Shown in pieces: positions 9,365 to 10,985 of a stretch of 18,558 nt of DNA. This DNA comes from a virus. A program made the position numbers and the translations under genes. Below the pieces are notes generated by a model, which saw nothing but the letters and a program-made list of their open reading frames with translations, did not search any database and was not told the DNA's origin. Each line of letters begins with the position of its first letter. Position 1 is the first letter of the stretch. The stretch lies in UHGV virus genome UHGV-0255022. One strand, written 5' to 3'.

Positions 9365-10906
9365 ATGACCACTGTGAATAAAAAGTTAAAAAAAACTGCA
9401 TCTGGCGCGATTACATGGTCGGTAATTGTTACCCAGATATTATCTCCAGTTTCTCTTTCTTTGATCCCAGCAAACAGTTTTGCATCATCTGGTAATAAAG
9501 ATGTTACGCAAATTTATGCCAGCGATGAGCATGCAAATAAAGTGGCCTCATTTGCAGCAAGTGCAGGTCAGAGCCTGGCGAATAATAATGCAAGTAGTTT
9601 TGCTGTAAATACTTTATCAACTCAGGCGACAAAAGAGGTCGTCGACTGGTTGCAACAATATGGCAATGCGCGCATCAAGCTTAATGTCGATGATTCTTTT
9701 TCCTTGAAGGATTCATCATTCGACTTTTTATATCCATGGCTGGATACTCAGGATTATGTGTTATTCAGTCAGACATCACTACATCGTACTGATGACCGAA
9801 ATCAGACCAATATTGGTTTGGGGATTCGTCATTTCACTCCTGATAACGCAATGTTGGGTGCGAATGTTTTCTATGATTACGATTTAAGTCGTAGTCACTC
9901 TCGTGCAGGTTTTGGGGTTGAGTACTGGAGGGATTATTTCAGGCTTGGTGTAAATACCTATTTTGGTCTATCTGACTGGAAGAACAGTCGTGATATTGAT
10001 GATTATCTGGAAAGACCTGCAAATGGCTGGGATTTTTCTGCTGAAGGATGGCTACCTGCTTATCCGCAATTAGGGGCATCTATTCAGTTTGAAAAATATT
10101 ATGGTAAAAATGTCGGGTTATTTGGAAGCGATAACCTGCAGGAAAACCCTTACGCAGTTACTGGGGGAATTTCTTATACACCAGTTCCTCTGATTAAGTT
10201 TTCTGCACAGCATAAGCAAGGACAGAGCAACACTCACGATACAACCTTTGGTGTTGAGTTTAATTATCGCCCGGGCGTTTCCTTGGCTGAACAGCTTAGC
10301 AGCGATAATGTTGCAGTTATGCGAGAAGTCCAGAACCGGCGTTATGATTTTGTTGAACGAAATAACAACATTGTTCTGGAGTACAAGAAGAAGCATGCAC
10401 TGAAAATCAGTTTGCCAGAGTCTGTTCAGGGGGAGGGGGAATCAATCATCCCTGTAACACTGACAATCAACAATGCTAGTGGTGGTATCAAGTCTGTACA
10501 GTGGAATGATAGTGCATTCACTGCGGCTGGCGGCAAGATCAGTGGAAATGGCACATCATGGCAGATCACTTTACCGGCTTATAAAAGCGAAGGTGTAAAT
10601 TCGTGGAATGTTGGAGCCACAGTACAGGATAACAGAGGCAACGTTTCCAACTATGCCGTGATGAATATTAGCGTTACTGATAGTGGTGTCTCGACGGCTG
10701 ATTCGTCTTTTACACTGGATGGAGATTCGTCGCCGACGATCTCTGCAGAGATTTCCTCTACCGCGCCTAATGACGGAGCAGTTACCGTTTCACGCTGTCG
10801 AGCACTATTGCTATCTGCTGTAAATTCCACTGACATTTCAATGTCATCAGCCAGTCCGGTTAATGCCTTACCGTTACTATCTTTCAGGCTTAATACTATC
10901 GGATAA
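9365..10906 (+). CDS. Invasin/intimin-family inverse autotransporter adhesin, N-terminal part (signal peptide, beta-barrel, first passenger repeats), truncated by an internal inversion
   Basis: 513-aa ORF with a long signal-like N-terminus and barrel-like aromatic-rich strands (GLGIRHF, GVEYWRDYFRLGVNTYFGL, GGISYTP). Genuine coding ends at about 10746; the last ~53 codons translate inverted DNA. Confidence 0.7.
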   Translation: MTTVNKKLKKTASGAITWSVIVTQILSPVSLSLIPANSFASSGNKDVTQIYASDEHANKVASFAASAGQSLANNNASSFAVNTLSTQATKEVVDWLQQYGNARIKLNVDDSFSLKDSSFDFLYPWLDTQDYVLFSQTSLHRTDDRNQTNIGLGIRHFTPDNAMLGANVFYDYDLSRSHSRAGFGVEYWRDYFRLGVNTYFGLSDWKNSRDIDDYLERPANGWDFSAEGWLPAYPQLGASIQFEKYYGKNVGLFGSDNLQENPYAVTGGISYTPVPLIKFSAQHKQGQSNTHDTTFGVEFNYRPGVSLAEQLSSDNVAVMREVQNRRYDFVERNNNIVLEYKKKHALKISLPESVQGEGESIIPVTLTINNASGGIKSVQWNDSAFTAAGGKISGNGTSWQITLPAYKSEGVNSWNVGATVQDNRGNVSNYAVMNISVTDSGVSTADSSFTLDGDSSPTISAEISSTAPNDGAVTVSRCRALLLSAVNSTDISMSSASPVNALPLLSFRLNTIG

Positions 10907-10985
10907 GTGGATTGGCTATCAGCAGAGATCGTCGGCGACGAATCTCCATCCAGTGTAAAAGACGAATCAGCTAGAGGAAATCTCT
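10697..10985. repeat. Inverted 225-bp block (10747-10971) flanked by inverted duplications (50 bp and 14 bp) inside the adhesin gene
   Basis: 10697-10746 is the exact reverse complement of 10922-10971, and 10747-10760 is the exact reverse complement of 10972-10985. The adhesin-like reading frame for 10761-10921 is on the minus strand. Confidence 0.85.

What the first reader, a model, noticed from the sequence alone, without database searches (positions are those of the whole stretch)
10697..10985. Adhesin gene is split by a 225-bp inversion flanked by inverted duplications
Seen directly: 10697-10746 (50 bp) is the perfect reverse complement of 10922-10971, and 10747-10760 (14 bp) is the perfect reverse complement of 10972-10985. 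The adhesin frame runs on the plus strand to 10746. The next ~54 codons of plausible Big-domain sequence (DSQSTYPIVLSLKDSNGKALTGLADDIEMSVEFTADSNSARQRETVTAPSLGAV) are on the minus strand of 10761-10921, and coding resumes on the plus strand from about 10959 (EEISAGVYRSVLAAGSQAGTVRVTAKVQG). Re-inverting 10747-10971 and removing one copy of each flank restores one continuous frame (50 + 161 + 14 = 225 nt = 75 codons) joining 9365.. to ..12980, about 1180 aa. Recombination between the 50-bp copies alone would leave a 64-bp duplication and a frameshift. This points to a mutational inversion (staggered-break or template-switch type) rather than a tuned invertase switch, though an ON/OFF invertible element is not excluded.
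Basis: seen in the sequence. Interest (0 to 1): 0.8.

Follow-up and report, generated by a model that had tools for sequence, protein, structure and literature searches.

The report
Adhesin gene broken by template-switch inversion
A prophage-borne invasin/intimin-type adhesin gene of E. coli has been knocked out by a one-off 225-bp inversion with duplicated ends; this is a known type of replication error and not a programmed on/off switch.

Summary
10697-10746 is the perfect reverse complement of 10922-10971, and 10747-10760 of 10972-10985. Re-inverting and removing one copy of each flank gives a 3552-nt ORF whose 1183-aa product is identical to WP_021544229.1, an intact inverse autotransporter found in closely related lambdoid prophages next to icd. 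Outside the rearrangement the window differs from strain AZ 190 by 10 substitutions and no indels in 18.5 kb.

Neither junction occurs in 5,426 complete E. coli genomes, GTDB representatives, IMG/VR or JGI metagenomes. The repeats are ordinary single-copy coding sequence in every intact orthologue. No invertase is nearby, and both possible orientations are truncated. It is therefore a private, recent pseudogenising mutation, not a switch.

Its architecture is exactly the published "3-1-4-2" template-switch event type: two inverted repeats around an inverted spacer. New here: two of the four breakpoints lie in register on the only two copies of a 10-nt direct repeat (ATCTCTGCTG, 177 nt apart; chance about 4e-6 to 1e-4). 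This makes junction 1 a 14-nt palindrome. It favours a fold-back (U-turn) copy followed by, or combined with, direct-repeat slippage.

An assembly artefact cannot be excluded without reads. Interest is modest.

The parts
9365..12980 (+). Disrupted inverse-autotransporter (invasin/intimin-type adhesin) gene. It is 3616 nt, which is the intact 3552-nt gene plus 64 nt.
   Evidence: Collinear with intact CDS WP_021544229.1 in L001/L002/L003. The reconstruction is identical at protein level. Pfam finds IAT_beta at 4e-101, Big_1 x5 and Invasin_D3. PDB matches are the invasin and intimin barrels.
9365..10906 (+). Truncated ORF left by the rearrangement: 513 aa, made of 460 native residues plus a 53-aa nonsense tail. 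It keeps only the signal/beta-barrel part and the first Ig-like (D00-like) domain.
   Evidence: ORF list, translation. Pfam finds only IAT_beta at 57-334. This exact product is not on record in the gene index.
10697..10746 (+). Repeat A: ancestral gene nt 1333-1382 in native orientation, the left 50-nt duplicated flank.
   Evidence: Exact reverse complement of 10922-10971. BLAST against the ancestral gene.
10747..10971 (-). Inverted 225-nt segment, ancestral gene nt 1333-1557 (codons 445-519, second Ig-like passenger domain), now on the minus strand. It consists of 10747-10760 (inverted copy of B'), 10761-10921 (161-nt single-copy core) and 10922-10971 (inverted copy of A).
   Evidence: BLAST maps window gene 1381-1607 to ancestral 1559-1333 on the minus strand. 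The four-point reconstruction is exact. Minus-strand translation agrees.
10972..10985 (+). Repeat B': ancestral gene nt 1544-1557 in native orientation, the right 14-nt duplicated flank. The native frame resumes here.
   Evidence: Exact reverse complement of 10747-10760.
10739..10752 (.). Junction 1: the 14-nt perfect palindrome ATCTCTG|CAGAGAT. It is formed by joining direct-repeat copy 1 to the reverse complement of copy 2, with a 2-nt (GC) breakpoint ambiguity.
   Evidence: Sequence. Absent from all collections searched.
10958..10989 (.). Junction 2 (10971|10972, ...GAATCAGC|TAGAGG...) has no microhomology. It is followed by the intact second copy of the 10-nt direct repeat ATCTCTGCTG at 10980-10989. 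An inverted full copy of repeat 1 lies at 10920-10929.
   Evidence: Sequence. The 32-mer is absent from genome and metagenome collections.
11184..12980 (+). Orphaned 3' part of the gene (598-aa ORF from an internal GTG). It encodes the distal Ig-like repeats and has no signal peptide or barrel.
   Evidence: ORF list. Pfam finds Big_1 x5 and Invasin_D3.

Best explanation
This is a recent, private, gene-inactivating complex mutation in a prophage-borne inverse-autotransporter adhesin gene. It was made by DNA-polymerase template switching during replication, not by a recombinase.

In ancestral gene coordinates the new strand consists of ...1-1382, then the reverse complement of 1557 down to 1333, then 1544 to the end. 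This is a four-point '3-1-4-2' event. It inverts 225 nt and leaves 50-nt and 14-nt inverted duplications.

The most likely route (inferred):
1. The nascent strand made a U-turn onto the opposite strand at the second copy of a 10-nt direct repeat (ATCTCTGCTG, at the quasi-palindromic CTGC/GCTG).
2. It copied about 226 nt backwards.
3. It returned to its original template 14 nt behind the point of departure.
4. Slippage between the two direct-repeat copies, either in the same event or soon after, removed 177 nt of the left arm. This converted an unstable 2x226-bp perfect palindrome into the stable arrangement seen now: 50-bp arms with a 175-nt spacer.

Consequence (shown): the adhesin is truncated after residue 460. 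It keeps the membrane barrel but loses nearly all of the Ig-like passenger. RecA flipping between the 50-bp arms would only give a second null isomer.
For: Shown:
- Exact repeats.
- The orthologous locus is 64 bp shorter and intact in closely related prophages.
- The reconstruction equals WP_021544229.1 with 0 aa differences.
- The re-inverted window differs from AZ 190 by only 10 substitutions and 0 indels in 18,494 nt, and those substitutions are standing alleles.
- No genome, virus or metagenome contig shares either junction, and the chimeric ORF is not on record.
- Both the four-point model (1382, 1557, 1333, 1544) and the fold-back-at-1558 plus 177-nt direct-repeat deletion reproduce the window gene exactly.
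- The ancestral gene has exactly two copies of ATCTCTGCTG, at nt 1375 and 1552, and breakpoints 1 and 2 are in register on them. The empirical chance is 9.7e-5 for at least 7 nt and 4.3e-6 for a 10-nt repeat.
- In E. coli, a switch of a nascent leading strand to the lagging-strand template is expected to give inversions (PMC1428787).

Established knowledge, not tested here:
- E. coli lacks Ku/LigD end joining.
- Long perfect palindromes are unstable in sbcCD+ E. coli and are resolved by deletions at short direct repeats.
Against: - No reads are available, so neither the reality of the junctions nor the presence of one or both isomers could be checked.
- Junction 2 has no microhomology and junction 1 only 2 nt (GC; 4 of 6 if extended). 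This is weak priming for a template switch.
- The 225-nt copied fragment is much longer than the tens of nucleotides typical of the short template-switch events in PMC5453318.
- The fold-back intermediate was not observed in any genome.
- The order of events (concerted or sequential) is inferred only from the final sequence.
Confidence: 0.72

Rival explanations
1. A single concerted four-point template switch (leave at 1382, land on the opposite strand at 1557, copy back to 1333, return at 1544). In this version the direct repeat plays no role and its registration with the breakpoints is coincidence.
For: It reproduces the sequence exactly with one event. It matches published type 3-1-4-2. There is a 2-nt GC microhomology at junction 1.
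Against: The direct-repeat registration is left unexplained, with chance 4e-6 to 1e-4. The departure and return points are 162 nt apart, against 14 nt in the fold-back route. This is a sub-variant of the best explanation and not a different class.
Confidence: 0.2
2. Assembly, library or cloning artefact: the inversion with duplications is not present in the organism's DNA.
For: The arrangement is unique among all the collections searched. Polymerases can also switch templates in vitro. No reads are available to test this.
Against: - Two distinct novel junctions form a fully self-consistent, conservative structure with no base lost or added.
- The rest of the 18.5 kb has 0 indels and only known alleles relative to relatives, so base quality is high.
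- A 10-nt repeat is far too short to confuse an assembler (inference).
- Chimeric reads are normally a minority and do not reach the consensus (inference).
Confidence: 0.12
3. Staggered-break inversion. Paired single-strand nicks 50 nt apart on the left and 14 nt apart on the right give two double-strand breaks with 5' overhangs. The overhangs are filled in and the middle fragment is religated in reverse (isochromatid model of Ranz/Kehrer-Sawatzki).
For: The model predicts exactly this pattern: inverted duplications at both ends, present only in the derived state (PMC7584159). No nucleotide is lost or gained.
Against: It needs precise blunt end-joining of two breaks. E. coli has no Ku/LigD pathway, and its alternative end-joining is resection-prone (established knowledge, not tested here). 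The model gives no reason for two breakpoints to coincide with a 10-nt direct repeat, unless a sequence-specific nickase is invoked, and there is no evidence for one.
Confidence: 0.05
4. A programmed invertible ON/OFF (phase-variation) element in the adhesin gene, driven by a site-specific invertase acting on the inverted repeats.
For: The gene encodes a surface adhesin, a class that is often phase-variable. There are perfect inverted repeats flanking a short segment.
Against: - The repeats are absent, as repeats, from every intact orthologue; they are plain single-copy coding sequence.
- 0 of 5,426 genomes show this orientation or the flipped isomer.
- Both isomers are truncated, with stops at codons 514 and 573.
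- The only recombinase annotated in the collinear prophage is the integrase with its excisionase.
- The nested 50+14 geometry is not that of a crossover site.
Confidence: 0.01

Closest known systems
Template-switch mutation, four-point model event type '3-1-4-2' (Loytynoja & Goldman 2017, PMC5453318)
   Same: The product is F1 + revcomp(F2) + F3 with switch points ordered 3<1<4<2. [quoted passage not shown] Nothing else is lost or gained, and the event stays within one fork-sized region.
   Different: The copied fragment is 225 nt, against tens of nt in the human/chimp events. The host is a bacterial prophage gene. Points 1 and 2 sit in register on a 10-nt direct repeat, which the plain model does not predict.
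Fold-back (U-turn) inverted duplications and palindrome-stimulated deletion at short direct repeats
   Same: Junction 1 is a zero-spacer palindrome, as at a U-turn. A fold-back at nt 1558 plus a 177-nt deletion between the two ATCTCTGC(TG) repeats reproduces the sequence exactly. U-turn inversions and fold-back inversions are described in PMC4417113 and PMC7467729 (listed, not read in full).
   Different: The large palindrome intermediate is not observed, only its inferred remnant. The return switch makes this an internal inversion and not a terminal inverted duplication.
Staggered-break inversions with inverted duplications at the breakpoints (Drosophila; Ranz et al. 2007, as reviewed in PMC7584159)
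   Same: Inverted duplications at both ends, present only in the derived arrangement.
   Different: The scale is 225 bp, against kb to Mb. The organism has no classical NHEJ. The direct-repeat registration of the breakpoints points to a replicative origin.
Invasin/intimin family inverse autotransporters (type Ve secretion); E. coli FdeC, YeeJ, IatA-D (PMC6714894)
   Same: The intact allele has the IAT_beta barrel (4e-101; PDB invasin 4e1t at 7e-74 and intimin 4e1s at 5e-63) followed by Big_1/Invasin_D3 Ig-like repeats.
   Different: It is 1183 aa and lies in a lambdoid prophage between replication gene P and the nin region. The named E. coli IATs are 465-2934 aa at conserved chromosomal sites. 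Identity with any named IAT was not tested by sequence. The window's copy is a pseudogene.
Site-specific invertible switches (Hin/Gin/Pin, fimS)
   Same: A short DNA segment bounded by inverted repeats, lying in or next to a surface-structure gene.
   Different: There are no pre-existing repeats in the ancestor, no invertase, no population polymorphism and no functional orientation.

Membership tests
Template-switch mutation, four-point type 3-1-4-2 | The derived sequence is exactly F1 (to point 1) + reverse complement of the point 2 to point 3 fragment + F3 (from point 4) of the ancestral sequence | tested here: met
   tsm(anc, 1382, 1557, 1333, 1544) equals window 9365-12980 exactly
Template-switch mutation, four-point type 3-1-4-2 | Switch points ordered 3<1<4<2, giving two inverted repeats and an inverted spacer; point 4 does not precede point 1 | tested here: met
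   1333 < 1382 < 1544 < 1557. Definition from PMC5453318
Template-switch mutation, four-point type 3-1-4-2 | Complementarity (microhomology) between the nascent 3' end and the new template at each switch | tested here: inconclusive
   Junction 1 has 2 nt (GC), or 4 of 6 if extended. Junction 2 has 0 nt
Template-switch mutation, four-point type 3-1-4-2 | The event arose during replication in vivo | not testable with these tools
   Needs reads from the isolate and/or experimental recurrence
Site-specific invertible (phase-variation) switch | Inverted repeat crossover sites are a constant feature of the locus in carriers | tested here: not met
   Intact orthologues have each sequence once, as coding DNA. 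The locus is 64 bp shorter in them
Site-specific invertible (phase-variation) switch | Both orientations are found among genomes or populations | tested here: not met
   0 of 5,426 complete E. coli genomes span junction 1 or hold the flipped isomer. No hits in the other collections
Site-specific invertible (phase-variation) switch | A dedicated invertase or recombinase is encoded nearby | tested here: not met
   The collinear annotated prophage has only the integrase and excisionase within the window span. DNA beyond the window was not examined
Site-specific invertible (phase-variation) switch | At least one orientation yields a functional product | tested here: not met
   The present isomer stops at codon 514 and the flipped isomer at codon 573, against 1183 aa intact
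Inverse autotransporter (type Ve, invasin/intimin) | N-terminal IAT beta-barrel translocation domain | tested here: met
   PF11924 at residues 57-334, E=4e-101. PDB 4e1t and 4e1s
Inverse autotransporter (type Ve, invasin/intimin) | C-terminal passenger made of tandem Ig-like (Big_1/Invasin_D3) domains | tested here: met
   Big_1 x5 and Invasin_D3 x6 in the intact orthologue. Matches to intimin D00 6tqd and invasin 1cwv
Inverse autotransporter (type Ve, invasin/intimin) | Continuous open reading frame linking barrel and passenger | tested here: not met
   In the window the frame breaks at 10746 and the barrel-only ORF ends at 10906. The gene is a pseudogene of this family
Inverse autotransporter (type Ve, invasin/intimin) | Signal peptide and C-terminal lectin-like tip | not tested
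   No signal-peptide predictor was run. No C-type lectin Pfam hit appears
Staggered-break inversion (isochromatid model) | Inverted duplications at both ends of the inverted segment, present only in the derived state | tested here: met
   50-nt and 14-nt duplications are absent from orthologues. Model as described in PMC7584159
Staggered-break inversion (isochromatid model) | An end-joining pathway able to religate two filled-in double-strand breaks precisely | not testable with these tools
   The source genome is not available. E. coli generally lacks Ku/LigD (established knowledge)

The most novel reading that the evidence does not exclude
The locus is a natural 'fossil' of a fold-back palindrome that formed and was rescued in a wild E. 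coli. A polymerase U-turn at a quasi-palindromic 10-nt direct repeat created a 2x226-bp perfect palindrome inside a prophage adhesin gene. Direct-repeat slippage then trimmed it to a stable 50-bp inverted repeat. If so, breakpoints registered on short direct repeats could serve as a diagnostic signature to separate fold-back plus slippage from plain four-point template switching in bacterial genome comparisons.
Probability: 0.4. Interest if true: 0.4.

Novelty: new member of a known kind. Interest (0 to 1): 0.28.

Why it matters
Biologically, this copy of a prophage-carried invasin/intimin-like adhesin is dead. It keeps the barrel and has no passenger, so it should be annotated as a pseudogene and not as two genes or as a phase-variable locus.

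Mechanistically, it is a clean and unusually long (225-nt) example of a complex template-switch mutation in a natural bacterial isolate. Every base is accounted for, and the ancestral state is known from near-identical relatives. The registration of two breakpoints on a 10-nt direct repeat gives a testable hint about how such inversion-with-duplication events arise.

It does not reveal a new system or function.

Tried and rejected
1. Quasi-palindrome footprint. The only substitution near the junction (10738 A>G) turns TCGTCG-C-CGACAA into a perfect palindrome, and only 1.9% of random substitutions would do something similar. It looked like a templated mutation tied to the event. However, 48 genomes with intact genes carry the same G allele, so it is a standing polymorphism. 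Idea dropped.

2. Related rearrangement in OZ121077 (L004). This gene is annotated as frameshifted and is 567 bp longer. It turned out to hold two extra, 2-7% diverged direct copies of the Ig-like unit. That is a different kind of allele, not an inversion.

3. Finding the source or another carrier:
- junction 1 32-mer in genome, viral and metagenome collections;
- junction 2 32-mer in genome and metagenome collections;
- a 70-nt junction query against all complete E. coli genomes;
- the phage collection;
- an exact look-up of the chimeric 513-aa ORF.
All were negative.

4. Invertase switch: rejected (see the membership test).

5. Sequence-specific cleavage, by a serine recombinase or a topoisomerase at the palindromic GC of the repeat. 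This would explain junction 1 as a sticky-end religation. It predicts a simple conservative inversion without the 64-nt duplication at junction 2, and no such enzyme is encoded in the window. Not pursued.

6. Single-strand annealing after cleavage of the palindrome centre. This would restore a 177-nt deletion allele and not the observed structure, so replication slippage is the preferred deletion step (reasoning only).
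Full report
**Observation.** The stretch 10697-10985 was read directly and scanned for repeats. 10697-10746 (50 nt) is the exact reverse complement of 10922-10971. 10747-10760 (14 nt) is the exact reverse complement of 10972-10985. 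A script confirmed both. These are the longest inverted repeats in the whole window. The plus frame from 9365 runs to ...DSSPTISA at 10746. The minus strand of 10761-10921 encodes DSQSTYPIVLSLKDSNGK...APSLGA. The plus frame resumes with EEISAGVYRSVLAAGSQAGTVRVTAKVQG.

**What the locus is.** The window is 99.9% identical to, and collinear with, a lambdoid (DLP12-like) prophage inserted directly 3' of icd in several clinical E. coli genomes: strains 1442, AZ 189/190/191 and others. The gene order is int, xis, exo, bet, gam, kil, cI-like repressor, cro-like, ydaT, O, P, the adhesin gene, an alpha/beta hydrolase, ybcN, ninE, ybcO, rusA, ylcG, Q, holin, lysozyme, rzpD, iss.

In these relatives the gene at the finding is one intact 3552-nt CDS, WP_021544229.1 (1183 aa), annotated as 'inverse autotransporter beta domain-containing protein'. 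Pfam finds IAT_beta at residues 57-334 (E=4e-101), five Big_1 stretches and six Invasin_D3 stretches. The closest solved structures are the invasin and intimin beta-barrels (4e1t, 4e1s), intimin D00 (6tqd, residues 342-442) and the invasin passenger 1cwv. The named E. coli inverse autotransporters (FdeC, YeeJ, IatA-D) have other sizes and occupy fixed chromosomal positions (PMC6714894). I did not compare sequences with them.

**Reconstruction.** The window gene 9365-12980 is 3616 nt, which is 3552 + 64. Taking 9365-10746, then the reverse complement of 10761-10921, then 10972-12980 gives a 3552-nt ORF. Its product is identical to WP_021544229.1, with one synonymous nucleotide difference at 10738. 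BLAST against the ancestral gene shows three pieces:
- 1-1382, colinear;
- ancestral 1559-1333 on the minus strand;
- 1544-3552, colinear.

Re-inverting the segment across the whole window leaves only 10 substitutions and no indels against AZ 190 over 18,494 nt. One is at 10738 and nine are clustered in iss. Both sets are standing alleles found in many other genomes, so the base-level quality of the sequence is high.

**How widespread it is.** Of 5,426 complete E. coli genomes, 561 have matches to the region. None has a single placement covering at least 80% of a 1101-nt query across the rearrangement. That excludes both the present arrangement and the isomer produced by flipping between the 50-bp arms. 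None spans a 70-nt query centred on junction 1. Junction 1 and junction 2 32-mers are absent from the GTDB representative genomes and the JGI metagenomes, and junction 1 is also absent from IMG/VR. The chimeric 513-aa ORF is not on record in the gene index. The phage collection has no match to the region at all. The allele is therefore private to the source of this window.

**Consequence.** The inverted segment corresponds to codons 445-519, in the second Ig-like domain of the passenger, just after the D00-like domain. The remaining ORF (9365-10906) encodes 460 native residues plus a 53-residue nonsense tail, and it retains only the IAT_beta domain. The distal Ig-like repeats are left in an orphan ORF (11184-12980) with no export signal. 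Flipping the 175 nt between the 50-bp arms gives exactly the ancestral gene plus a 64-nt insertion after nt 1557. That isomer is identical to the intact protein for 520 residues and stops at codon 573. Both isomers are null for a full-length adhesin. As single-stranded DNA the region would form a 50-bp-stem hairpin (-86 kcal/mol, z = -12.9). With a 175-nt spacer this is a stable kind of inverted repeat in E. coli (established knowledge).

**Not a programmed switch.**
- The 'repeats' are ordinary single-copy coding sequence in all intact orthologues.
- No second orientation exists in any genome.
- Neither orientation is functional.
- The only recombinase genes in the collinear annotated prophage within the window are the integrase and excisionase.

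**Mechanism.** Written on the ancestral gene, the derived strand is 1-1382, then the reverse complement of 1557 down to 1333, then 1544 to the end. A script confirms this reproduces the window exactly. It also shows a 2-nt (GC) ambiguity at junction 1 and no microhomology at junction 2. The order of switch points, 3<1<4<2, is the '3-1-4-2' event type of the four-point template-switch model. [quoted passage not shown] In E. coli, a switch of a nascent leading strand to the lagging-strand template is expected to give inversions (PMC1428787).

The alternative classical model is staggered single-strand breaks, fill-in and reversed religation. It predicts the same end-product (PMC7584159). It needs precise end-joining of two breaks, which E. 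coli does poorly (established knowledge).

**A new detail bearing on the mechanism.** The ancestral gene contains exactly two copies of the 10-mer ATCTCTGCTG, at nt 1375 and 1552. Breakpoints 1 and 2 fall at the same position within them, so junction 1 (window 10739-10752) is the perfect palindrome ATCTCTG|CAGAGAT. For random breakpoint pairs 50-1000 nt apart in this gene, a shared 7-nt suffix occurs with frequency 9.7e-5 and a shared 10-nt repeat with frequency 4.3e-6.

A direct repeat cannot prime a strand-inverting switch. It is, however, exactly what slippage uses. The same final sequence is obtained by this route:
1. The nascent strand makes a U-turn at nt 1558, at the quasi-palindromic CTGC/GCTG.
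2. It copies 226 nt of the opposite strand.
3. It returns 14 nt behind the point of departure.
4. 177 nt between the two repeat copies are lost by slippage, in the same event or soon after.

The intermediate would be a 2x226-bp perfect palindrome. Such palindromes are known to be unstable in sbcCD+ E. coli and to be resolved by deletions at short direct repeats (established knowledge, not tested here). This route explains the repeat registration and brings departure and return to within 14 nt of each other. I therefore prefer it over a plain two-jump switch, but it remains inference from one sequence.

**Leads that failed.**
- The substitution at 10738 perfects a 6-bp palindrome next to junction 1 and looked like a templated mutation. 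The same allele occurs in 48 genomes with intact genes, so it predates the event.
- The 'frameshifted' allele in OZ121077 carries extra diverged direct copies of the Ig-like unit. It is not a related inversion.

**Caveat.** Without reads, an assembly or library artefact cannot be excluded. Against it are the two independent, perfectly conservative junctions, the high base quality elsewhere, and the fact that a 10-nt repeat is too short to mislead an assembler. I put this rival at about 0.12.

**Verdict.** This is a private pseudogenising mutation of a described type, a template-switch inversion with flanking inverted duplications, in a prophage-borne invasin/intimin-like adhesin gene. It is a tidy case for people who study mutational mechanisms, but it is not a new system. 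Interest is about 0.28.

Noticed in passing
L004 (NZ_OZ121077.1) 2066-6184: Another allele of the same inverse-autotransporter gene is 567 bp longer. It contains two extra direct copies, 2-7% diverged, of the Ig-like unit (ancestral nt ~1310-1571), and RefSeq annotates it as frameshifted. The duplicated unit overlaps the segment that is inverted in the window.
   Followed up: partly
window 18144-18324: Nine of the ten substitutions relative to strain AZ 190 cluster in the iss (bor-like serum-survival lipoprotein) gene. The window's allele is 100% identical to iss in many other E. coli genomes, which suggests allele exchange by recombination and not point mutation or sequencing error.
   Followed up: partly
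window 10726-10738: The G allele at 10738 makes TCGTCG-C-CGACGA a perfect 6-bp palindrome a few bases upstream of junction 1. The closest relatives have A (an imperfect palindrome). The G allele is a standing polymorphism in 48 of 420 genomes, so it is not a footprint of the rearrangement, but it might favour fork pausing there.
   Followed up: yes
window 7867-7904: A 24-nt overlapping palindrome or repeat (TTTACCTGAAAGAGGTAAATTTAC...) lies inside the replication-protein (lambda O-like) gene. It is probably part of the prophage origin iterons.
   Followed up: no
L001 16135-17304; L002 5654-7037: In the closest relatives the same prophage is decaying in other ways. ISEc52 is inserted in the lysozyme gene (strain 1442), and ISEc23 truncates the alpha/beta hydrolase gene next to the adhesin gene (strain AZ 191).
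   Followed up: no
window 1-1256 and L003 250-1500: The prophage integrase lies directly 3' of icd, the attachment region used by e14. In more distant relatives of this prophage, the slot between P and the nin genes holds ybcK (a recombinase family protein) or SIR2/DUF3800 genes in place of the adhesin gene, so this is a variable cargo slot.
   Followed up: no
window 10742-10747: Junction 1 creates a PstI site (CTGCAG) that is absent from the ancestral sequence. This would be handy for a restriction or PCR test of the allele. No biological meaning is inferred.
   Followed up: no
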